From: Alphaproteobacteria bacterium
GTDB lineage: Bacteria; Pseudomonadota; Alphaproteobacteria; Rhizobiales; Xanthobacteraceae
Direction: 5' to 3'
NCBI GenBank assembly: GCA_009781045.1
Contig: WQYW01000004.1
Span: forward strand, 49 to 64,048
DNA length: 64,000 nucleotides
Each line of letters begins with the position of its first letter. The first letter of the stretch is position 1. The position numbers and the translations under genes are program-made. Below, one piece after another: positions 1,929 to 49,857 of this stretch. The notes under the pieces are model-generated. The model worked only from the letters and a program-made list of their open reading frames with translations, ran no database searches and was not told the origin of the DNA.

Positions 1929-3314
1929 TTGCAGTCGCAGAATCCCGATATTGGTCTTCCGTCAAAGGAGGGAGCGCAGGCCCGGGTGATCGTCGTCGGT
2001 CCCTATCTGCGTTCGGAAACCGCTAACATGCTGTCAGATGGCCATGTCCAGCGCCATTTTGACGCACGTCTGGACGAGGCCACAGGCCTGGCACGCGCCA
2101 TTGATCTCGACGTCGCCGCCTCGGTGATTGCGCAAGTGAGCCAGATCCGTCCTGCGACCTGGCTTGGCAAGGGCAAGGTTGAGGAACTGGGTGAGCTGAT
2201 CCTGGACCAGCGGGCCGAACTCGTGGTGATGGATTGTGCGCTGTCGCCAATCCAGCAGCGCAATCTCGAGAAAGCCTGGAACGTCAAGGTGGTCGACCGC
2301 ACCGGGCTGATCCTCGAAATCTTCGGCCGTCGCGCCAAGACCCGGGAAGGCACGCTCCAGGTTGAACTGGCCCATCTCAATTATCAGCGCAGCCGCCTGG
2401 TGCGTTCCTGGACCCATCTTGAGCGCCAGCGCGGCGGCTTCGGTTTCATGGGCGGCCCCGGCGAGACCCAGATCGAAGCCGACCGTCGCCTGATCAGCGA
2501 ACGAATCGCCAAGCTCGAAAACGAGCTGGAGAAAGTCCAGGCGACACGGCGGCTGCATCGTGCCGGCCGCCAGCGCGTGCCCTACCGCGTCATCGCGCTG
2601 GTCGGCTACACCAACGCCGGCAAATCGACCCTGTTCAACCGCCTGACCCGCGCCGATGTGCAGGCTGCCGACATGCTGTTTGCCACCCTCGATCCGACGC
2701 TGCGCGCCATCCAGCTGCCGCATGGCGGCAAGGTCATGCTCTCCGACACCGTGGGCTTCATCTCCAGCCTGCCGACCCAGCTGGTCGCGGCCTTCCGCGC
2801 TACACTGGAGGAGGTGCTGGAAGCCGATATCATTCTCCATGTGCGCGACATTGCCCATGAGGATGCCGAAGCCCAGCTCAGTGATGTCGGTGCCGTCCTT
2901 CGCCAGCTCGGCATTGATCCGGACGACGGCGCACGGATCATTGAGGTCTGGAACAAGATCGACCGCTTCGGCCCGGAAAAGCTTGAGGAATTGTCCAATA
3001 TTGCGGCCCGGCGTCCGCTTGACCACCCAGCGCTGATGGTGTCTGCAGTGACCGGGGAGGGCGTCGAGAGTTTACGCGTCACAATCGAGAACCGCCTCGC
3101 CGCGCGTCGCACCACGCTCAGTTTGACAATCGACGCCGCCGACGGTGCCGGGATCAGCTGGCTGCACCGCAATTGCGAGGTGCTGGCCAAGGAGCTGCAG
3201 GACGATCGTTTCGACATGACGGTGCGGGTCGACGAAACCAGGCGCGACATCGTCATCGCCCGCTTCCATGCCGAACCCGACTCCGGCTCCGATGCTGATT
3301 TTGAGCCCGCGTGA
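1929..3314 (+). CDS. hflX: Ribosome-splitting GTPase HflX
   Basis: GGPGETQIEADRR, G1 VGYTNAGKSTLFN, DxxG (SDTVGF), NKID; likely TTG start at 1929 after GAAGAGG (ORF track starts at 1794). Confidence 0.97.
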   Translation: MQSQNPDIGLPSKEGAQARVIVVGPYLRSETANMLSDGHVQRHFDARLDEATGLARAIDLDVAASVIAQVSQIRPATWLGKGKVEELGELILDQRAELVVMDCALSPIQQRNLEKAWNVKVVDRTGLILEIFGRRAKTREGTLQVELAHLNYQRSRLVRSWTHLERQRGGFGFMGGPGETQIEADRRLISERIAKLENELEKVQATRRLHRAGRQRVPYRVIALVGYTNAGKSTLFNRLTRADVQAADMLFATLDPTLRAIQLPHGGKVMLSDTVGFISSLPTQLVAAFRATLEEVLEADIILHVRDIAHEDAEAQLSDVGAVLRQLGIDPDDGARIIEVWNKIDRFGPEKLEELSNIAARRPLDHPALMVSAVTGEGVESLRVTIENRLAARRTTLSLTIDAADGAGISWLHRNCEVLAKELQDDRFDMTVRVDETRRDIVIARFHAEPDSGSDADFEPA

Positions 3315-3661
3315 TGATTCTGTGCCGAATCGACGGACTGCGCTTTCCCATGCCGAGCAAATGGCTTCACCCGAAGAACACCGGCTGGACCGACGTCGAT
3401 TACGACTTCGGCCTGCCGCAACCTGACGCCACGGCGCTGGCGCAAGCCCTCAACGCGGCCTGTCACGTTTTCTATTATCATGGCGGGGGCGGAATCTGGC
3501 AGAACCATCTGCATGGAAAGCAGCACTACGCCTCCCTGATCGCGGCGCAGATCAAAGCCCATCCCGGTCTCACGCACAGACTGCTGGCTTCGGGCGATCG
3601 CGTCATCCAGATGCTCACCTATCGCGCCGTCGAAATGCTGGAACACCCGGACGGTCGCTGA
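3311..3661 (+). CDS. Hypothetical protein (116 aa)
   Basis: GTGA overlap with the hflX stop (translational coupling) and high-GC3 codons; no recognisable family. Confidence 0.6.
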   Translation: MMILCRIDGLRFPMPSKWLHPKNTGWTDVDYDFGLPQPDATALAQALNAACHVFYYHGGGGIWQNHLHGKQHYASLIAAQIKAHPGLTHRLLASGDRVIQMLTYRAVEMLEHPDGR

Positions 3662-3939
3662 CCACAACTGACACGGCAACGCCTGTCCGTGTCACAGAAA
3701 TTCACCGCGCTTCACGCTCGCCTGGAAATCCGCAAAACCGTTCGAATGACAGACACAATTGTGCTGAGCCCCGCAACGTGCTACGCGTTCTGCTCTGTGC
3801 CAGACGTTGCCAGGTCGTCCGGCTAGCATGGCGGACAGGTTTGATGCCTGGAGCGCATGGCGCAAGCGTGGCGCGCGAGCGAACGGAACCACTGTGATGC
3901 GCGATACAGGATACAGAGTACAGGTTCCCGGGAGGCGTC

Positions 3940-4533
3940 ATGAGACCTGACCAGATTACCAGGTGGTTGATCATCCTGCTGGTGCTTTTCGTCACACCGC
4001 TGGTCCGGGCTGAGGACAAAATCACGACCCTGCAGGTCGCGGCTGATGGCTTCCCTGCGGGCCATGAAACGCCGGAGGGAGCTGCCGCCGACCTGGCCCG
4101 GGCGTTCATTCGGCACGATGTCCAGTTGTTCAACGCCACCTGCATCAAGCCATTCGCGGGCGGTGTATCGCGCCGGGAATATTCCGCCTTTCTCAAAGCG
4201 ACCGGTGACAGCATCCGGGAAGCGGCGCAACGCCAGGACGCGGTGGGACCAAAGGAACTCGTCAAGCTGTTCGCTGCCCGAAGCCTCAGCCAGAGCGGCC
4301 CGGCCTCGTACGGCTATGCCGTGTTCGGATTCCGGGATGTAAAATTCGTCGACGTCCTGGTCCTGCTGAAGAACGGCAGCAAATACAGAAATCGGACACT
4401 TGTTCTCAGGGACAAGACCGGCAAGTGGTATGCGCACCCGCTACCAGGATCGAGCCCGTTGTTGAGCGCCGGACTGAACGAAGAGTCCGAATCCACAACC
4501 GATTTCGGCAAAGTCTATAGGGTTCAGAAATAG
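3940..4533 (+). CDS. Exported hypothetical protein (197 aa)
   Basis: GGAGG RBS; N-terminal signal peptide ending LVRA; coherent globular composition. Confidence 0.75.
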   Translation: MRPDQITRWLIILLVLFVTPLVRAEDKITTLQVAADGFPAGHETPEGAAADLARAFIRHDVQLFNATCIKPFAGGVSRREYSAFLKATGDSIREAAQRQDAVGPKELVKLFAARSLSQSGPASYGYAVFGFRDVKFVDVLVLLKNGSKYRNRTLVLRDKTGKWYAHPLPGSSPLLSAGLNEESESTTDFGKVYRVQK

Positions 4534-42544: not shown

Positions 42545-44592
42545 AAAACCTGCGTCTTCGGCTCCACGTAACGGGGAAAGGCCGGTGTTGGAGCCGGAAA
42601 CTGTGTCCCCGGCGCGATGCGCACGCTCCCGCCGAGCATGCCGAAGTGACGCTCGTCGGCACCGATCCCGAGACTGTCGAGCAATTTACCCGCCCCCAGA
42701 GGCACCACCGGCTGGGCCAGGATCGCGATCTGGCGCACCACTTCGGCGGTGACATAGAGCACCGTCTTCTGCCGGGCCGGATCGGTTTTCGCCAGCGCCC
42801 AGGGCGCCTGATTGGCGAAATAGCGGTTGGCTTCGGCCACCGTCGCCCACACCACATTCAGCCACTGATGAATCTGCTGGGTCGCCATGGCCTCGCGCGA
42901 CAGCGCGATCATGGCGTCGGCCTGCGCCAGCATGGCTTCGTCGGCCTCGGAAAATTCCCCTGGCTCAGGCAGCCCACCGTCATATTGCTTGCCGATCATC
43001 GACAGCGAGCGCTGTGCGAGATTGCCAAGATCATTGGCGAGATCGGCATTGGTGCGGGTGACAATGGCCTCATGGTTGCAGTGACCATCCTGCCCGAACG
43101 GCATCTCACGCAGGAAGAAATAGCGCAGCTGGTCGACGCCATACTGATCGGCGAGATCAAAGGGATCGACGACATTGCCGGTCGTCTTCGACATCTTCTC
43201 GCCCCGACTGAGCAGGAAGCCATGGGCGAAAACCCGCTTCGGCAACGGCAGGCCAGCCGACATCAGGAAGGCCGGCCAATACACCGTATGAAACTTGATG
43301 ATGTCCTTGCCGATAATATGCACGTCGGCCGGCCAGAAATTCCAGTTGCCGTCGTTTTCGTCCGGGAATCCGATGCCCGTGAGATAGTTGGTGAGGGCAT
43401 CAACCCAGACATACATCACATGGTCTTTGCTCTCCGGCACCTTGACGCCCCAGTCGAAGGTGGTGCGGGAGATCGACAGGTCCCGCAGACCGCGCCTGAC
43501 GAAACTGAGAACCTCGCTGCGTCCCGAGTCCGGCCCTATAAAGTCCGGATGCTCTTCATAGAGCTTGAGCAAACGATGCTGGTAGGCTGAGAGGCGGAAG
43601 AAATAGCTCTCTTCCTCGACCCACTCCACCGGCGTATTCTGGTCTCCCCCCCGCCGCACGCCATCGGCGTCGACATGGGTTTCATCCTCTTTGTAATAGG
43701 CCTCGTCACGCACCGAGTACCAGCCGGCATAACTGTCGAGATAGATGTCGCCATTGGCCTGCATGCGCTGCCAGACCTCCTGGGTGGCACGATGATGCTG
43801 CTCCTCCGTGGTGCGGATGAAGCGGTCAAAGGAGACATGGAGGCGCTCGTCCATGTCGCGGAAACGGGCGGTGTTGCGGGCCGAAAGTGCCGCCGGCGTC
43901 AATCCCTCGGCTTGCGCGGTCTTGATCATTTTCAGACCGTGCTCGTCGGTTCCCGTCAGGAAGAAGACGTCCTTGCCGTCGAGCCGCGCGAAGCGCGCCA
44001 GCGCGTCGGTTGCGACCGCCTCATAGGCGTGACCGATATGGGGATTGCCATTCGGGTAGGCGATGGCTGTGGTGATGTAGAAGGAATTGGGGCGGCGACA
44101 AACTGTTCCCGCCGGCGTTCCCGCTGCGCTTTGCGACAGAGTGCGCACCGCTCCCCGTGGCGCTGCAGACGTGCGCGGAGTGCTGGCGGTGGCCTTGGTC
44201 CTGACAACGGTCGTCGACCGGCGGCTGGCACCCCGGGGAGCTGTCTGGCGCGAGGTTGATCGGGTACTGGTCCTGGTCGCCGCAGCCTTGGTCGCCCTGG
44301 TCGTACCGCGTGCTGCGGTCTTGCCCGCAGCCGCCTTGCGGCCGGTCGCAGCTTTTCTGGCCGTTGTCTTCGCCGCTTTGGCCGCCTTCGACCGCGCTGG
44401 CCGACCCGAGACCTTCTTCGCCGAGGCCTTCCGTGACACTGCCTTGGCGGCCTTCTGTGCCGGAGGCTTCCTTTTTGCTGCAACCTTTTTCTTCGCGGCG
44501 CCCTTCTTTGCGGACGCTTTCTTGCGTGAGACGCCGGCAGCTGTTTTGCCGGCTGTCTTGCGTTTAACGGTTTTCTTAGCGCGCGTTGCCAC
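42541..44592 (-). CDS. metG: Methionine--tRNA ligase with a basic N-terminal extension
   Basis: [17 protein letters not shown] (HIGH), TGTDEHG, YVWVDAL, GKDI, KMSKT; start GTG 44592 or 44595 after AAAGGA; ~165 aa K/A/R/T-rich N-terminus. Confidence 0.96.
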
Positions 44593-44749
44593 CACGAATT
44601 CCTTTGCAGCTGGAAAAATGTCAGAACCGGTCAAACCTGCCCCAGATGAAGCTGAACGCGAACCAGACGGCTCCAGGATCAAGACCGGCTCATTGGCTCA
44701 AACCTGTCGGGCAGACTTGATGTCGGGAAAAATCGAGCGAGGCTTTTCC

Positions 44750-45811
44750 TCAATCTGCGTGCTGAACCGCCTGCGCAAGCCAGCCGAAGACCGAAAGAAT
44801 CAGCGGCTTCCGGTCCAGATTATAGGCTTCGACGTCACGCGCGGCGCGGACGATCTTTTCCCATACCTCCGCCAGCCGTGCAAGATGGGGCAGTTTTTCA
44901 TTGGTACAGTCACTGAGCTGCCCAGTGATCCAGCGCTCGATGCCGTCAACAAAGACAGCAAGCGCCGCCCGGTCGGCGCTGCCGAGGCTGTCCCCCAAGG
45001 CATGCATCTCTGCGCCATCGACCTGCGGCAGCCTGGCGAGCAAAGCCGCGACGCGCTGCTGCAGCTCCAGGGCACCTCCGCCCATCAGGGTCAGTGCCTG
45101 GGCGACACGCCCCTCTGAGGCCTCGGCTGCGTCCCGCAGATGTGGATCGTTGGCATCCAGCGCTGCCGCGGTCGCCGCCGCTCGAATCACATCCGGCACC
45201 AAAAGCGGCCGCAGGCGAAGCCTGCGACAGCGCGATTTGATCGTTGCCAGAGCACGTGCGGGGGAGTTGCTGACCAGGAGGAACAGGGATCGCCGCGGTG
45301 GCTCCTCAAGCGCCTTGAGCAGCGCATTGGCCGCGTTGTCATTGAGTTCATCAACCGTATCAACGATGCAGACCCGCCATCCCTCGCCAGAAGCGGTGGC
45401 TCCGAAGAAGGGAATTACCCCACGGCTCTCTTCCACCCGGATCACCGTGTAGAGTTCACCGGTTTTCTTCTTCTCGTTCTCGACCCGCTCGATCGCCAGC
45501 AGCGCGCCATGTGCGCCGGACGCCACCTGATGCGCCACTGGGTGATTCGGATCAACCGCCAGGGATTCAGCCCGTTGCACCGCAGGCGAAGAGGGCTCGC
45601 CATGGGCGAGCACGAAGCGCGCCATCCGATAGGCCAGCGTCGCTTTGCCAATGCCTTGCGGCCCTTCTATCAGCCAGGCATGGGCAATGCGGCCGCTGCG
45701 GTAGGCGTCGAGCATCATGGTCTCGGCATCACCATGACCGAACAGACAGTCTGTCTGCCGCGGAAGCCTGATCGAAAGGGCAGGCTCGCTCTTCTTGCGG
45801 GGAGCTTTCAA
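44750..45811 (-). CDS. holB: DNA polymerase III subunit delta'
   Basis: HAWLIEGPQGIGKATLAY, CIVDTVDELNDNAANALLKALEEPP, TIKSRC; overlaps the tmk stop. Confidence 0.96.
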   Translation of the reverse strand: MKAPRKKSEPALSIRLPRQTDCLFGHGDAETMMLDAYRSGRIAHAWLIEGPQGIGKATLAYRMARFVLAHGEPSSPAVQRAESLAVDPNHPVAHQVASGAHGALLAIERVENEKKKTGELYTVIRVEESRGVIPFFGATASGEGWRVCIVDTVDELNDNAANALLKALEEPPRRSLFLLVSNSPARALATIKSRCRRLRLRPLLVPDVIRAAATAAALDANDPHLRDAAEASEGRVAQALTLMGGGALELQQRVAALLARLPQVDGAEMHALGDSLGSADRAALAVFVDGIERWITGQLSDCTNEKLPHLARLAEVWEKIVRAARDVEAYNLDRKPLILSVFGWLAQAVQHAD

Positions 45812-48468
45812 GGGCCGACCTCCGCGGGCACCGCTTCAGCCCTCTCTGCCACCTGCACCTCTTTGGCTTTCCCGGCCGTGGGCTCCTCATTGGCCTTCTC
45901 AGCGGCAGGCACCTCTTTGGCCTGCCCGGCCACGGGCACTTCGCCATCCTTCCCATCTGCGGGAACTTCAACGGCCTTCTCAACCGTGGGGACTTCTTCG
46001 GGCTTGTCGGTCACAGGCCCCTCGTCCGCCTTCCCGGAAGCGGGCACCTCACCGGCCTTCTCCGCCAGGGGCGCCTCTTCGGCCTTTTCGGTCACCTGCG
46101 CCTGTTCGGGCATCCCGGCAACGGGCACTCCGCCATCTTTCCCATCTGCGGGAACTTCAACGGCCTTCTCAACCGTGGGGACCTCTTCGGGCTTGTCGGT
46201 CACAGGCCCCTCGTCCGCCTTCCCGGAAGCGGGCACCTCACCAGCCTTCTCAACCGTGGGCGCTTCTTCGGCCTTTTCGGTCACCTGCGCCTGTTCGGGC
46301 ATCCCGGCAACGGGCACTTCGCCCTCGTTCCTGACTGCGGGAACTTCAACGGCCTTCTCAACCGTGGGGACCTCTTCGGGCTTGTCGGTCACAGGCCTCT
46401 CGTCCGCCTTCCCGGAAGCGGGCACCTCACCGGCCTTCTCAACCGCGGGCGCCTCTTCGGGCTTTTTGGTCACCTGCGCCTGTTCGGGCTTGTCGGTCAC
46501 AGGCCCCTCACCTGCCTTCCCGGTTTCCTGCTCCTCGACGGCCTGCTCGGCCACCTGATTGGTGGGGTTGCCGTCCGGTCCTTCCGGGCTGATTTTGATT
46601 GGAAGACGTTCTTGCACCAGCTCCCAGACGCGTTCGGCAACCGCCTCGGCGCTGTCGCTGGCATCGACCAGGGCACAGCGCCCAGGCTCTTCTGCGGCAA
46701 TGCTGCGAAAGGCATAGCGCAAGCGCTGGTGGAATTCGGCATCCTCGGCCTCGAAGCGGTCCGGAGTGTCTTTGCCACGGCGTGCGGTAGCACGCTGCAA
46801 TCCGATTTCGACCGGAAGGTCCAGAACGATCGTGAGATCCGGCTTCAGATCCCCGATCGTGACCCGTTGGAGCGATTCAATGAGGTCCGTGGACACCCGC
46901 CCAAGGCTGCCCTGATAGGCCCGCGTCGAGTCAGAGAAGCGATCGCACAGAACCCAGCTTCCTGCTTCCAGGGCTGGCAGGATAACCTGATGGACATGAT
47001 CGTCCCGCGCCGCCGCGAACAACAGCGCCTCAGCCTCCGGCCCGAACTGCTTTCCTACCCCTGAGAGCAGTACATGGCGCATGATTTCCGCTCCGGCGGA
47101 ACCACCAGGTTCACGGGTGGTGACAGTCCTGTATCCGGCGGCGTTCAGTCGATCAGCAAGTATCCTGATCTGGGTCGACTTGCCGGTCCCCTCGCCCCCC
47201 TCAAAGGTGATGAATGGCGCACGCGCCGGCTTGTCGTCTGGTTTTTTTCTCGTCAAGGCAGAGCGAATGGTCGAGGGAAGTCTGCGCAGGCTGTCTTTGA
47301 CACTGCGGAGCACCAGAAAAGATCGAAGCTTCGCGCGCCTTTTGGTTCGAGCCGCCTGCCGCCGCAATCTTTTCTGGATCCGCCTGCGCCGCCTGTTGAT
47401 GCGGCGGATCACCACAGCAGATCGCATCATCGCCTGTCTGGTGGTGCGTGCCAGCTGCCGCCGCAACCGTTGCTGAAGCCGCCGGCGCTTTCTGTTGATT
47501 CTGCGGAGTACCAGAGCAGATCGAAGCATCAGGCGTTGGGAAGCTCGAGCCACCTGCCGGGCCACCCGAACAGATCGAAACACCAAACGTCGAACGGTTC
47601 GCGCCAACTGCCGGCGCAACCGTTGCTGAAGCCGCCGGCGCCTTCTGTTGATGCGGCGGAGCACCAGAGCAGATCGAAGCATCAGATGTCGGGCGATTCG
47701 TGCCAGATGCTGGGCTGTCAGAGCGGTTCGGCGTCTTGTGCGCCGGGCGGTTCGGGCCAACTGGCGCTGCAGCCTTTCCCGGATCCGCCATTCCTTGCGC
47801 TTGCGGTTGATGGCCTGGGCCGTCAGAGCAGTTCGGCGTCTTGTGCGCCGGACGGTTCGGGCCAACTGGCGCTGCAGCCTTTCCCGGATCCGCCATTCCT
47901 TGCGCTTGCGGTTGATGGCCTGGGCCGTCAGAGCCGTTCGACGCCTTGTGCGCCGGGCGGTGCGTGCCAGTTGCCGCTGCAGTCTTTCCCCGATCCGCCA
48001 CTCCTGACGTTTGTGGTTGATGGCCTGGGTCGTCAGAACAATTCGACGCCTTGTGCGCCGGGCGGTGCGTGCCAGTTGTCGCTGCAGTCTTTCCCCGATC
48101 CTCCACTCCTGGCGTTTGCGGTTGATGGCCTGGGTCGTCAGAACAGTTCGACGGCTTGTGCGTCGGGCAGTTCGCGCCAGATTTCGCTGCAGTCTTTCCC
48201 CGATCCGCCATTCCTTGCGCTTGCGGTTGATTGCCCGGGCCACCACAGCAGTTCGACGCTTCGTGCGCCGGGCGGCTCGTGCCAGTTCGATGCGCCTCTG
48301 CCGGATGCTGCGGGCTACCAGAACAGATCGAAGCATCAAACGCCGGGTGGTTCGAGCCACCTGGTGCCGCCATGCTGACGGGATCCGCCATTGGGTGCGC
48401 AGTTTGTTGATGGCGTCGAGCATCCTGGAAAAACTGCGCTTGAGCGTGTCTGGAAAAGTTGATGGCAT
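45808..48468 (-). CDS. tmk: Thymidylate kinase with long N-terminal Arg-rich and C-terminal acidic repeat extensions
   Basis: Core at 46601..47214: FITFEGGEGTGKST, REPGG, LCDRF.DST.AYQG, PDLTIVLD, DRFE. The frame is open from the dacA stop to holB (ATG 48468; TTG 48480 alternative). Confidence 0.93.
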   Translation of the reverse strand: MPSTFPDTLKRSFSRMLDAINKLRTQWRIPSAWRHQVARTTRRLMLRSVLVARSIRQRRIELARAARRTKRRTAVVARAINRKRKEWRIGERLQRNLARTARRTSRRTVLTTQAINRKRQEWRIGERLQRQLARTARRTRRRIVLTTQAINHKRQEWRIGERLQRQLARTARRTRRRTALTAQAINRKRKEWRIRERLQRQLARTVRRTRRRTALTAQAINRKRKEWRIRERLQRQLARTARRTRRRTALTAQHLARIARHLMLRSALVLRRINRRRRRLQQRLRRQLARTVRRLVFRSVRVARQVARASQRLMLRSALVLRRINRKRRRLQQRLRRQLARTTRQAMMRSAVVIRRINRRRRRIQKRLRRQAARTKRRAKLRSFLVLRSVKDSLRRLPSTIRSALTRKKPDDKPARAPFITFEGGEGTGKSTQIRILADRLNAAGYRTVTTREPGGSAGAEIMRHVLLSGVGKQFGPEAEALLFAAARDDHVHQVILPALEAGSWVLCDRFSDSTRAYQGSLGRVSTDLIESLQRVTIGDLKPDLTIVLDLPVEIGLQRATARRGKDTPDRFEAEDAEFHQRLRYAFRSIAAEEPGRCALVDASDSAEAVAERVWELVQERLPIKISPEGPDGNPTNQVAEQAVEEQETGKAGEGPVTDKPEQAQVTKKPEEAPAVEKAGEVPASGKADERPVTDKPEEVPTVEKAVEVPAVRNEGEVPVAGMPEQAQVTEKAEEAPTVEKAGEVPASGKADEGPVTDKPEEVPTVEKAVEVPADGKDGGVPVAGMPEQAQVTEKAEEAPLAEKAGEVPASGKADEGPVTDKPEEVPTVEKAVEVPADGKDGEVPVAGQAKEVPAAEKANEEPTAGKAKEVQVAERAEAVPAEVGP
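45900..46510 (-). repeat. 189-bp x ~3 tandem repeat (63 aa; 7 x 9-aa subrepeats) in the tmk 3' extension
   Basis: gggaacttcaacggccttc recurs at 45961, 46150 and 46339; Lys falls every 9 residues. Confidence 0.95.
47340..48300 (-). repeat. 105-bp x 5 tandem repeat (35 aa) plus ~3 diverged units in the tmk 5' extension
   Basis: ctggcgctgcagcc at 47761 and 47866; unit TALTAQAINRKRKEWRIRERLQRQLARTVRRTRRR. Confidence 0.95.
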
Positions 48469-48480
48469 TGGCGGCAACAA

Positions 48481-49725
48481 TCAGAACCTGCTGATTCCGG
48501 CGTGGAAGGTTCCGACCACAAGCTCGCTGATGCCATCGATCGCACGGCTCAAAGTTGATCCGGTGCCGATGCTCTCGGCCGCGTAAAGCGGCGTCTCCAC
48601 TGCGAGATTGCCGGCGCGCAGGATCCTGACCATCCCGATCGGCTGCCCCTCCTGAATCGGCGCCTGCACCGGCCCCTTGTAGACGATGCGCGCGGTCAAA
48701 CGCTCACCGCCGGTCTTGCGCACCATCACCGCAACCGGTGTATGGCTGGCGAGCTTGACCCAGCCGTTGTCGCCACCAAAGACACGCGCATAGCCCAGCA
48801 CCTGATCGGGATTGAACATGGTCCTGGTTTCAAAGCTGCGAAAGCCCCACTCCAGCATCTTCTTGGCCTCCGATGCGCGGTCCTCGGGACTTTCGAGGCC
48901 ATTGACGACAACAATGAGGCGGACGCCATTCTGCACCGCCGACCCAGCCATGCCATAGCCCCCGTCATTGGTGAAGCCGGTCTTGACCCCGTCGGCCGAC
49001 TCCATCGAGTTCAAGAGTGGATTGCGATTGAACTGACGAATCTTGTTCCAGGTGAACTCCTTTTCGCCGAAGATTTTGTAGAAATCCGGGTGCTCAAGGA
49101 TGATGTGGCGCGCCAGCTGCGCCAGTTCCCGGACCGTCATCTTGTTGCCGGGGTCCGGCAGGCCGTTTGAATTGGCAAAAGTCGATTTCACCAGGCCCAG
49201 CCCACGGGCCCGTTTGGTCATAAAATTGGCGGCGAAGGCGGCCTCACTGCCGGCCAGCCCCTCGGCAAGTGCGATACAGGCATCGTTCCCGCTCGGGATG
49301 ATCGCTCCATGAAGCAGATCACTCACCGACACCTTGCTGTTGATGGCGGCAAACATTGTCGATCCACGCGAGGGAGCCCCCCCTCTCCTCCAGGCATTTT
49401 CACTGATCCGATATTCGTCAGTCGGTTTGATCTCGCCTTTCTGGATGGCATCAAAGAAGACCTCTGCGGTCATCATCTTCATCATGCTGGAAGGGGGACG
49501 CAGCTGATCGGCGTTTTTCTCAAACAAAACCGCTCCGCTGGAGGCCTCGATCAGGATCGCGGTCGGGGCGTCACCCTCGAACCCACCGTCTTCCTTCTTG
49601 GCCCCTTGAACACTCTGATTGGCGGCATGAAGCACTCCCGCCCAGCCCAGGCCCGCTGCAACGCAAAGCGCAAGAAGCCCCGGCAGCAGCCGGCTGCGGT
49701 GGATGGATGATCGTTCGAATGCCAT
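48481..49725 (-). CDS. D-alanyl-D-alanine carboxypeptidase (PBP5/6 family)
   Basis: PSSMMK (SxxK), SGND (SxN), KTG triad; N-terminal signal/TM segment. Confidence 0.96.
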   Translation of the reverse strand: MAFERSSIHRSRLLPGLLALCVAAGLGWAGVLHAANQSVQGAKKEDGGFEGDAPTAILIEASSGAVLFEKNADQLRPPSSMMKMMTAEVFFDAIQKGEIKPTDEYRISENAWRRGGAPSRGSTMFAAINSKVSVSDLLHGAIIPSGNDACIALAEGLAGSEAAFAANFMTKRARGLGLVKSTFANSNGLPDPGNKMTVRELAQLARHIILEHPDFYKIFGEKEFTWNKIRQFNRNPLLNSMESADGVKTGFTNDGGYGMAGSAVQNGVRLIVVVNGLESPEDRASEAKKMLEWGFRSFETRTMFNPDQVLGYARVFGGDNGWVKLASHTPVAVMVRKTGGERLTARIVYKGPVQAPIQEGQPIGMVRILRAGNLAVETPLYAAESIGTGSTLSRAIDGISELVVGTFHAGISRF

Positions 49726-49857
49726 GGCCTGTGCCTTGAGCCGCAACCGGGTAAATAATGCAGAAGATGCGCCTTTTTAACCGCAGATGTCCCGAGCCGA
49801 TAGCAAAATCCGGCGACAGAACAAGGGACAAGAGACCGTGCCCTGAATCCTGGGGGC

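What the first reader, a model, noticed from the sequence alone, without database searches (positions are those of the whole stretch)
45808..48468. Thymidylate kinase flanked by a protamine-like poly-Arg repeat domain and an acidic repeat domain
Seen: one uninterrupted frame from the dacA stop to holB encodes ~418 aa of Arg-rich repeats, an intact ~205-aa Tmk core and ~264 aa of acidic repeats. The Arg-rich part has five 35-aa units (12 R + 2 K + 2 E in the unit counted) plus ~3 diverged units. The acidic part has 63-aa units (15 D/E versus 6 K) built from 9-aa subrepeats. The Arg frame has strongly G/C-ending codons and keeps frame across all units, which argues it is the translated one. Established: Tmk is normally ~210 aa, essential and dimeric, and sits directly between dacA and holB in this operon. 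Inference: oppositely charged arms could form an autoinhibitory or condensate-forming switch, or tether dTDP synthesis to the nucleoid, ribosomes or polyphosphate. Repeat number may be variable. I know of no described Tmk with this architecture.
Basis: partly seen in the sequence, partly recalled or inferred. Interest (0 to 1): 0.9.

Follow-up and report, generated by a model that had tools for sequence, protein, structure and literature searches.

The report
Thymidylate kinase with two repeat-built charged tails
In one uncultured Bradyrhizobium lineage, the only thymidylate kinase gene has gained an arginine-rich repeat array in front and an acidic repeat array behind, making an ~890-residue reading frame with no relative in public data; whether the arginine part is translated, and what either tail does, is still unproven.

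Summary
Window 45808-48480 (minus strand) is one open frame of 890 codons: 408 Arg-rich codons (126 R, net +128), an intact 227-aa Tmk core, and a 255-aa acidic tail.

- **Relatives:** Eighty Bradyrhizobium loci have a compact tmk. The dacA stop lies 38-46 nt before FITFEGG (here 1266 nt), and FITFEGG-to-stop is 212-216 aa (here 468).
- **Reality:** A second assembly (ENA contig, L098) has both arrays base for base, minus exactly one 105-nt unit. The arrays are therefore real and vary in frame.
- **Acidic tail:** It must be translated, because no stop follows the core.
- **Arg arm:** It is probably translated. All 13 units keep the frame. Substitutions between units are 35 synonymous to 34 non-synonymous against 32% synonymous expected (p=0.0008), and this holds in that frame only. 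The start abuts the dacA stop, as in relatives.
- **Against:** Codon usage in the arm is atypical, with many rare CGA and AGA codons. A TTG at 47256 sits exactly where the ancestral ATG was, in the least structured stretch of the gene, so a shorter 482-aa isoform is plausible.

The Arg domain has no homologue among 1.84 billion proteins. Acidic tails on Tmk recur independently elsewhere. Function is inferred only.

The parts
48481..49746 (-). dacA (D-Ala-D-Ala carboxypeptidase). Its TGA stop (48481-48483) is in the same frame as the long tmk ORF and directly abuts it.
   Evidence: Pfam Peptidase_S11 + PBP5_C; junction sequence
45808..48480 (-). Long tmk reading frame: 890 codons plus stop, 100.9 kDa, pI 11.5.
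   Evidence: identical in the ENA contig L098 except for one 105-nt unit
48466..48480 (-). Candidate start codons at the dacA junction: TTG 48480, TTG 48477, ATG 48468. There is a weak SD-like AGCAGG (duplex -4.6 kcal/mol) and low local RNA structure.
   Evidence: relatives place the tmk ATG 1-2 nt after the dacA stop
48283..48465 (-). Diverged leading units (aa 6-66). They include an INKLRTQWRI variant of the unit motif and a 25-aa unit.
47758..48282 (-). Five 35-aa (105-nt) Arg-rich units (aa 67-241), consensus ARTARRTRRRTALTAQAINRKRKEWRIRERLQRQL. One unit is absent from the second assembly.
47257..47757 (-). Older Arg-rich units (aa 242-408): 18, 33, 18, 33, 33 and 32 aa, all in the same register.
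47254..47256 (-). In-frame TTG (codon 409) at the exact position of the ancestral tmk ATG, 14 codons before FITFEGG. It is a possible internal start giving a 482-aa protein. It has no SD (+0.4 kcal/mol) but sits in the least structured window of the ORF.
46576..47253 (-). Tmk catalytic core (aa 410-635) with P-loop EGGEGTGKST, TREPGG, DRFSDSTRAYQG and a LID region RATARRGKDTPDRFE.
   Evidence: Pfam PF02223 E 3e-44; PDB thymidylate kinases E 4e-42; 71% mean identity to Bradyrhizobium Tmk
45811..46575 (-). Acidic E/A/V/P/K-rich tail (aa 636-890; 48 E, 12 D, 24 K, 31 P). It contains three 63-aa units (45925-46491), each built of seven 9-aa sub-repeats.
   Evidence: the codon model clearly favours this frame; AlphaFold2 predicts disorder
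45808..45823 (-). tmk TGA (45808-45810) overlapping the holB TTG start (45809-45811), preceded by a strong GGAGG SD (45819-45823) encoded in the last codons of the acidic tail.
   Evidence: duplex -10.7 kcal/mol
44750..45811 (-). holB (DNA polymerase III delta').
   Evidence: Pfam DNA_pol3_delta2; the exact protein is in public collections on two contigs

Best explanation
This is the single, intact tmk gene of a deep-branching, metagenome-derived Bradyrhizobium. Two lineage-specific tandem-repeat arrays have grown at the two tight gene junctions that flank tmk.

Shown: the arrays are real, in frame, unique to this lineage, and vary in unit number.

Shown by sequence logic: the acidic tail is always made together with the kinase, because no stop separates them. 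holB now carries its own strong SD inside the end of that tail.

Inferred, most likely: translation starts at the dacA stop, as it does in relatives where dacA and tmk are 1-2 nt apart. The Arg-rich array is then read as an N-terminal extension of about 400 residues, giving a protein of about 100 kDa. Selection has kept that frame open and partly conserved its amino-acid sequence. A second, shorter isoform (482 aa) from the retained ancestral start position (TTG 47256) is plausible.

Inferred, weakly: the N-terminal arm is a long amphipathic, polycationic alpha-helix that sticks non-specifically to polyanions such as RNA, DNA, polyphosphate or acidic membrane. The disordered acidic tail mainly keeps the protein soluble or partly shields the arm. 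The kinase chemistry itself is unchanged.
For: **Reality of the arrays.** The ENA contig L098 is identical over the whole ORF apart from a clean 105-nt deletion. Only 2 SNPs occur in 10.5 kb of flanks.

**Uniqueness.**
- 80 of 80 relatives have FITF-to-stop of 212-216 aa.
- 77 of 77 have 38-46 nt from the dacA stop to FITF.
- The Arg array gives no match in 150 genomes of the genus, genome contigs, metagenome contigs, or elsewhere in its own genome.
- It gives only 2 spurious hits among 1.84e9 proteins.

**Essential gene.** There is one tmk in the genome, and its core is intact.

**Arg frame is coding.**
- Substitutions between units are 35 synonymous and 34 non-synonymous against 32% synonymous expected (p=0.0008). 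The other five frames are not significant.
- pN/pS is 0.34 and 0.52, the lowest of the six frames in both unit families.
- All 13 units and every unit-length variant (35, 33, 32, 26, 25 and 18 aa) keep the frame.
- There is no stop, although 114 of 408 codons are one step from one.
- Of 122 tandem arrays in this genome, 108 have periods that are multiples of 3.
- The array RNA folds less stably than 97 of 100 shuffles (z +1.89), and there is no Rfam hit.

**Start site.** The junction has a weak SD (-4.6 kcal/mol), and the internal TTG has none (+0.4). No promoter-like site lies in the region.

**Structure.** AlphaFold2 on the single sequence gives helix for residues 9-399 (pLDDT about 50-70) and a disordered tail. 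Hydrophobic periodicity peaks at 100 degrees per residue.

**C-terminal tail.** The codon model gives 0.27 bits per codon and clearly favours this frame.
Against: - Codon usage of the Arg array is atypical. It scores -0.07 bits per codon against 0.20-0.36 for neighbouring genes. Its synonymous-usage score is below the 1st percentile of the genome's genes. It has 26 CGA and 11 AGA among 126 Arg codons.
- In the diverged half, the codon model slightly prefers another frame.
- The gene caller used for the ENA contig chose that other frame and a truncated Tmk.
- Comparison between the 35-aa and 33-aa unit families shows no frame-specific constraint.
- The TTG at 47256 matches the ancestral start position and sits in the least structured 50-nt window of the ORF (-4.2 kcal/mol).
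- The AlphaFold2 model has low confidence (mean pLDDT 48.6).
- Nothing tests function.
Confidence: 0.58

Rival explanations
1. Only the 482-aa protein (core plus acidic tail) is made, starting at TTG 47256. The Arg-rich array is an untranslated minisatellite spacer between dacA and tmk whose open frame is fortuitous.
For: - The TTG aligns exactly with the ancestral ATG.
- It lies in the least structured window of the ORF, with an A-rich start region.
- Codon usage in the array is atypical and rich in rare Arg codons.
- A second minus-strand frame is also stop-free and two plus-strand frames have only 2-3 stops, so stop-avoidance is only p~0.05.
- A +128 polycation could be costly to the cell.
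Against: - There is a frame-specific excess of synonymous change (p=0.0008).
- Every indel between units is a multiple of 3.
- There is no SD at this TTG and no promoter-like site.
- Relatives rely on a 1-2-nt dacA-tmk junction. That junction is conserved at the upstream start, not here.
- The array RNA is unstructured, as coding RNA tends to be.
Confidence: 0.27
2. The array encodes a separate protein in the other open minus-strand frame (47201..48391, 396 aa, Pro/Gly/Ala/Thr-rich), as called on the ENA contig, and tmk starts downstream.
For: That frame is stop-free. A gene caller picked it on L098 as a 355-aa gene. The codon model prefers it in the diverged half of the array.
Against: - In that frame, substitutions are 13 synonymous to 56 non-synonymous (p=0.98), and pN/pS is 1.4-1.5.
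- The companion call truncates Tmk to start after its P-loop (at Met59 counted from codon 409), which would kill the only tmk.
- Its synonymous-codon score is the second lowest of the six frames (-0.16).
Confidence: 0.04
3. The arrays are assembly or binning artefacts, or the gene is a decaying pseudogene.
For: The genome is a 307-contig draft. Many 'long Tmk' entries in databases are frameshift or gene-call artefacts. Read-level checks were unavailable.
Against: - A second assembly, with a different contig length and 2 flank SNPs, reproduces both arrays exactly, minus one unit.
- The units are 6-12% diverged, which assemblers do not invent.
- The core is intact and is the only tmk in the genome.
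- The tails share no similarity with neighbouring genes.
Confidence: 0.04

Closest known systems
Canonical Bradyrhizobium / alphaproteobacterial Tmk (228-230 aa) in the rlpA-dacA-tmk-holB-metG-tatD cluster
   Same: Same synteny and the same catalytic motifs. The core is 65-73% identical. The start abuts the dacA stop, and the stop overlaps the holB start.
   Different: This gene has +1222 nt before the core and +762 nt after it. Both ancestral ATGs (tmk and holB) are TTG here, and holB has gained a strong SD.
Uncharacterised alphaproteobacterial Tmk with a ~215-aa acidic C-terminal tail (P0122, three JGI metagenome samples)
   Same: Same gene order. The tail is acidic and rich in E, V, P and A, and it runs up to the holB start.
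   Different: The tails share no sequence similarity (E 0.45). P0122 has no N-terminal extension, and its tail is not built of long tandem units. The two tails have independent origins.
Actinobacterial MFS-Tmk fusions with a short acidic repeat tail (P0004, P0005)
   Same: A Tmk core followed by GEVPASG-type acidic repeats.
   Different: The N-terminal partner is a membrane transporter domain (PF07690), not an Arg-rich repeat. The lineage is unrelated.
Basic N-terminal appendages on aminoacyl-tRNA synthetases, including the Lys/Ala-rich ~200-aa extension on MetRS in this same operon
   Same: A polycationic low-complexity extension on a housekeeping enzyme. The MetRS extension is also present in relatives L002 and L009. 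From general knowledge, such tails enhance non-specific tRNA binding.
   Different: The MetRS tail is Lys/Ala-rich, non-repetitive and shared across the genus. The Tmk arm is Arg-rich, built of 33-35-aa units, predicted helical, and specific to this lineage.
Arginine-rich motif (ARM) peptides such as those of HIV Rev or lambda N (recalled from general knowledge; not tested here)
   Same: Short helical stretches of the RRxRRR...W/ERxR type resemble the unit motif, which suggests nucleic-acid binding.
   Different: There is no homology. ARMs are single 10-20-aa motifs, not a ~400-aa array, and no binding has been tested here.

Membership tests
Thymidylate kinase (dTMP kinase, PF02223) | Domain match above the curated threshold | tested here: met
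   PF02223 scores 151 bits against a cutoff of 27, over aa 426-617. PDB Tmk chains match at E 4e-42.
Thymidylate kinase (dTMP kinase, PF02223) | P-loop GxxGxGK[ST], DR[YF] motif and an Arg-bearing LID region | tested here: met
   EGGEGTGKST, CDRFSDSTRAYQG and RATARRGKDTPDRFE are aligned to 3uwo.
Thymidylate kinase (dTMP kinase, PF02223) | Conserved position between dacA and holB; sole copy in the genome | tested here: met
Thymidylate kinase (dTMP kinase, PF02223) | dTMP-to-dTDP kinase activity of the long protein | not testable with these tools
   Needs an enzyme assay or complementation.
Coding tandem repeat with variable unit number (in-frame VNTR) | Period a multiple of 3 and frame kept across all units | tested here: met
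   Periods are 105, 99, 189 and 27 nt. All 13 units sit in one register.
Coding tandem repeat with variable unit number (in-frame VNTR) | Unit-number difference between near-identical genomes | tested here: met
   L098 lacks exactly one 105-nt unit and shows no other difference in the ORF. It is unknown whether this is a true polymorphism or an assembler path choice.
Coding tandem repeat with variable unit number (in-frame VNTR) | Protein-level constraint in the proposed frame | tested here: met
   This holds for the Arg array within unit families (p=0.0008). It does not hold between unit families or for the acidic units, where substitutions look neutral.
Arginine-rich nucleic-acid-binding domains (ARM / protamine-like) | Sequence homology to a described family | tested here: not met
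   No significant Pfam or PDB hit (best E 0.37 and 0.18, chance-level) and no real homologue in 1.84e9 proteins.
Arginine-rich nucleic-acid-binding domains (ARM / protamine-like) | Binding to RNA, DNA or polyphosphate | not testable with these tools
   Only composition (31% Arg, net +128) and predicted amphipathic helix are available.
Frameshift or gene-call fusion artefact (as in dacA-tmk or tmk-holB 'long Tmk' database entries) | Extension is the neighbouring gene read out of frame | tested here: not met
   The tails have no DNA or protein similarity to any other part of the genome. They are reproduced in a second assembly. The artefact examples are P0002, P0025, P0030 and P0036.

The most novel reading that the evidence does not exclude
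A ~400-residue polycationic, amphipathic-helical domain arose de novo by tandem amplification at a translationally coupled gene junction. An insertion there could survive only as an in-frame ORF, because the essential tmk depends on ribosomes arriving from dacA. The domain has since acquired a function: tethering dTDP synthesis to RNA, DNA, polyphosphate or membrane, or driving condensates. That function would be tuned by unit-number variation and buffered by an independently born acidic tail.
Probability: 0.2. Interest if true: 0.8.

Novelty: new variant of a known kind. Interest (0 to 1): 0.55.

Why it matters
Tmk is a small, essential and highly conserved enzyme. Its gene sits in one of the tightest operon junctions in alphaproteobacteria. 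Here it has quadrupled in length through two recent repeat expansions while keeping an intact core.

If the Arg arm is translated, this is a clean natural case of domain birth on an essential enzyme. The ancestral state is known, the repeat units can be ordered by divergence, there is a measurable selection signal, and the unit number is polymorphic.

It would also be a test case for how translational coupling constrains what can be inserted between genes, and for what a +128 helical arm does to a soluble kinase.

Practically, it also shows that automatic gene calling mis-splits this locus, producing a Tmk without its P-loop.

Tried and rejected
- **Structured RNA or riboswitch in the array:** no Rfam hit at E<=1. 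The array folds less stably than 97 of 100 shuffles.
- **Mobile or dispersed repeat:** no other copy in the genome by blastn or tblastn.
- **Homology of either tail to known families:** no significant hit in Pfam or PDB (best E 0.07-0.37, chance-level). The two phmmer hits (P0007, P0008) are unrelated repeat proteins.
- **Other five reading frames:** none shows a synonymous excess.
- **Codon-usage models:** inconclusive for the Arg array.
- **35-aa versus 33-aa unit families:** saturated and uninformative.
- **Internal promoter scan:** none found.
- **Public annotation of the locus:** 19 candidate products were looked up by exact sequence and none is in the collection. The neighbours holB and dacA are present.
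- **Searches for further alleles in metagenome contigs:** nothing found.
- **Genus-wide searches:** two failed on the server and were replaced.


Full report
**What is there.** On the minus strand the window carries the usual alphaproteobacterial cluster rlpA-dacA-tmk-holB-metG. Between the dacA stop (TGA 48481-48483) and the holB start (TTG 45811) lies one uninterrupted frame of 890 codons, 45808-48480.

Pfam recognises only a thymidylate kinase domain, at residues 426-617 (E 3e-44). The core aligns to solved bacterial Tmk structures at E 4e-42, with an intact P-loop, DRF motif and LID region. It is the only tmk in the 5.5-Mb draft genome.

In front of the core are 408 codons with 126 Arg (net charge +128). 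Behind it are 255 codons with 60 Asp/Glu and 31 Pro (net -33). Tandem Repeats Finder reports 105-nt x 5.5 and 99-nt x 2.2 arrays in front, and a 189-nt x 3 array with 27-nt sub-periods behind.

At the protein level the whole N-terminal part resolves into 13 units in one register, with consensus ARTxRRxxxRxALVxRxINRxRxRIxxRLxRQL. Their lengths are 35, 33, 32, 26, 25 and 18 aa.

However, an exact-sequence look-up of holB led to a second, independently assembled contig (ENA ERZ27257292, 125,635 bp).

- Over the tmk frame it is identical to the window except for a clean deletion of one 105-nt unit, which gives 855 codons.
- The 10.5 kb of flanks differ at two SNPs.
- Both arrays are therefore reproducible, and the unit number differs in frame between two near-identical populations. 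It could also be that an assembler chose one of two co-existing alleles.
- An artefact or pseudogene reading is unlikely.

**How unusual is it?** The genus is Bradyrhizobium (record titles).

- In 80 related loci, the distance from the dacA stop to the FITFEGG codons is 38-46 nt (77 of 77 measurable; here 1266 nt).
- In the same loci, FITFEGG-to-stop is 212-216 aa (80 of 80; here 468 aa).
- The Arg array has no counterpart in 150 genomes of the genus, in 32 million genome contigs, in the metagenome contigs, or elsewhere in its own genome.
- Among 1.84 billion protein representatives there are only two hits, both unrelated repeat proteins.
- Pfam and PDB give no significant hit for either tail.

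Most 'long Tmk' proteins in the databases turned out to be frameshift fusions with dacA or holB, or over-extended starts. There are genuine exceptions:

- P0122, an alphaproteobacterial Tmk seen in three metagenome samples in the same gene order, carries an unrelated ~215-aa acidic tail.
- The actinobacterial MFS-Tmk fusion P0004 ends in a GEVPASG-type acidic repeat tail.

Acidic C-terminal tails on Tmk therefore recur. The Arg-rich N-terminal array does not.

**Is the acidic tail translated?** Yes, by sequence logic. No stop separates it from the core. The codon model clearly favours this frame (0.27 bits per codon, like neighbouring genes). Substitutions between its three 63-aa units look neutral in every frame, so the units are young or little constrained. 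The last codons of the tail encode a strong GGAGG, 7 nt before the holB TTG (duplex -10.7 kcal/mol).

**Is the Arg arm translated?** This is the crux, and the evidence is mixed but leans towards yes.

For translation:
- Substitution events between units are 35 synonymous to 34 non-synonymous in the Arg frame, against 32% synonymous expected (p=0.0008). The other five frames show no excess.
- Nei-Gojobori pN/pS is 0.34 for the 35-aa units and 0.52 for the 33-aa units, the lowest of six frames in both sets.
- Every length difference between units is a whole number of codons.
- No stop has arisen, although 114 of 408 codons are one mutation from a stop (p~0.05).
- In this genome, 108 of 122 tandem arrays have periods divisible by three.
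- In all 11 relatives examined, the tmk ATG follows the dacA stop by 1-2 nt. Here a TTG follows it directly, with a weak SD-like AGCAGG (-4.6 kcal/mol). The internal TTG has no SD (+0.4), and no promoter-like site was found.
- The array RNA is less structured than shuffled controls (z +1.89) and matches no Rfam family.
- The predicted product looks like a protein. AlphaFold2 gives helix from residue 9 to 399 (pLDDT about 50-70). Hydrophobic periodicity peaks at exactly 100 degrees per residue.

Against translation:
- Codon usage is atypical, at -0.07 bits per codon, with 26 CGA and 11 AGA among 126 Arg codons. GC3 is 0.68 against a genome mean of 0.77.
- In the older half of the array the codon model slightly prefers another frame. 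The gene caller behind the ENA record chose that frame, together with a Tmk truncated after its P-loop.
- However, that other frame shows 13 synonymous to 56 non-synonymous changes and pN/pS above 1, so I reject it as a gene.
- Comparison between the two unit families is saturated and uninformative.
- Codon 409 is a TTG that aligns exactly with the ancestral ATG, 14 codons before FITFEGG. It lies in the least structured 50-nt window of the whole ORF (-4.2 kcal/mol).
- A shorter 482-aa isoform is therefore plausible, and exclusive use of this start cannot be excluded.

**Most likely history and mechanism.** Two minisatellite-like expansions occurred at the two tight junctions of tmk. The more diverged units lie toward both ends of the N-terminal array and the most uniform ones (the five 35-aa units) between them.

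Relatives appear to translate tmk by ribosomes that have just terminated on dacA. An insertion at that junction could then persist only as an in-frame, stop-free extension, which fits what is seen.

I therefore take the main product to be a protein of about 100 kDa. It would consist of a long cationic amphipathic helix, a normal Tmk core, and a disordered acidic tail, possibly accompanied by a ~52-kDa form.

Any role of the arm is inference from composition only. Candidate partners are RNA, DNA, polyphosphate or acidic membrane.

**Comparison with the known.** The core is a bona fide Tmk. The architecture is a new variant of a known theme: a housekeeping enzyme with low-complexity charged appendages. 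The MetRS encoded two genes downstream has a Lys/Ala-rich N-terminal extension that is also present in relatives. I found no paper describing a Tmk with such tails.

**Verdict.** Translation of the Arg arm is probable (about 0.6). Function is unknown and only inferred. The interest is moderate: this is a striking and well-delimited case of repeat-driven growth of an essential enzyme. So far it is known from only one lineage, seen in two assemblies, with no expression data.

Noticed in passing
window 44080-44682 (-), metG N-terminus; also L002 1-541 and L009 2-361: MetRS carries a ~200-aa Lys/Ala/Arg/Thr-rich N-terminal extension before the HIGH domain. Comparable K/A-rich extensions precede metG in Bradyrhizobium relatives. 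The alphaproteobacterium that encodes P0122 has a 515-aa MetRS without one.
   Followed up: partly
window 45808-45823 and 47254-47256: Both ancestral ATG starts at the tmk junctions are TTG in this lineage (tmk position 47256; holB, where ATGA has become TTGA). holB has gained a canonical GGAGG SD inside the end of the acidic tail.
   Followed up: partly
window 48478-48483: dacA and the long tmk frame are in the same reading frame, separated by a single TGA. Read-through of that codon would fuse DacA to the Arg arm.
   Followed up: no
L098 3544-4611 and 4730-6004: Automatic gene calls on the ENA contig split the locus into a 355-aa ORF in a non-selected frame and a 424-aa Tmk that starts after the P-loop. 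This is almost certainly a mis-annotation.
   Followed up: yes
L013-L015 (JGI metagenomes), gene 3001-4275: An unrelated alphaproteobacterium has a 424-aa Tmk with a ~215-aa acidic, Pro/Glu/Ala-rich C-terminal tail ending at the holB start. It is identical in three samples.
   Followed up: partly
P0004 (JGI) and P0005 (Streptomyces sp. URMC 126): These are actinobacterial fusions of an MFS transporter domain with Tmk. P0004 ends in a short acidic GEVPASG-type repeat tail.
   Followed up: no
genome contigs C190:5954-6454 and C27:25661-25925: Two paralogous ~1000-aa proteins have very regular Ala/Glu/Lys/Arg-rich coiled-coil-like repeats, one with a 99-nt unit x 5 at 95% identity. The N-terminal domains were not identified.
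   Followed up: no
genome contig C44:30803-33938: A long array with a constant ~36-nt element alternating with variable ~30-nt stretches (TRF reports a 198-nt period) looks like a CRISPR array.
   Followed up: no
genome contig C1:45850-46332: A protein of about 650 aa with a hydrophobic signal-like N-terminus has sixteen 10-aa DKDKDHGKWS/T repeats.
   Followed up: no
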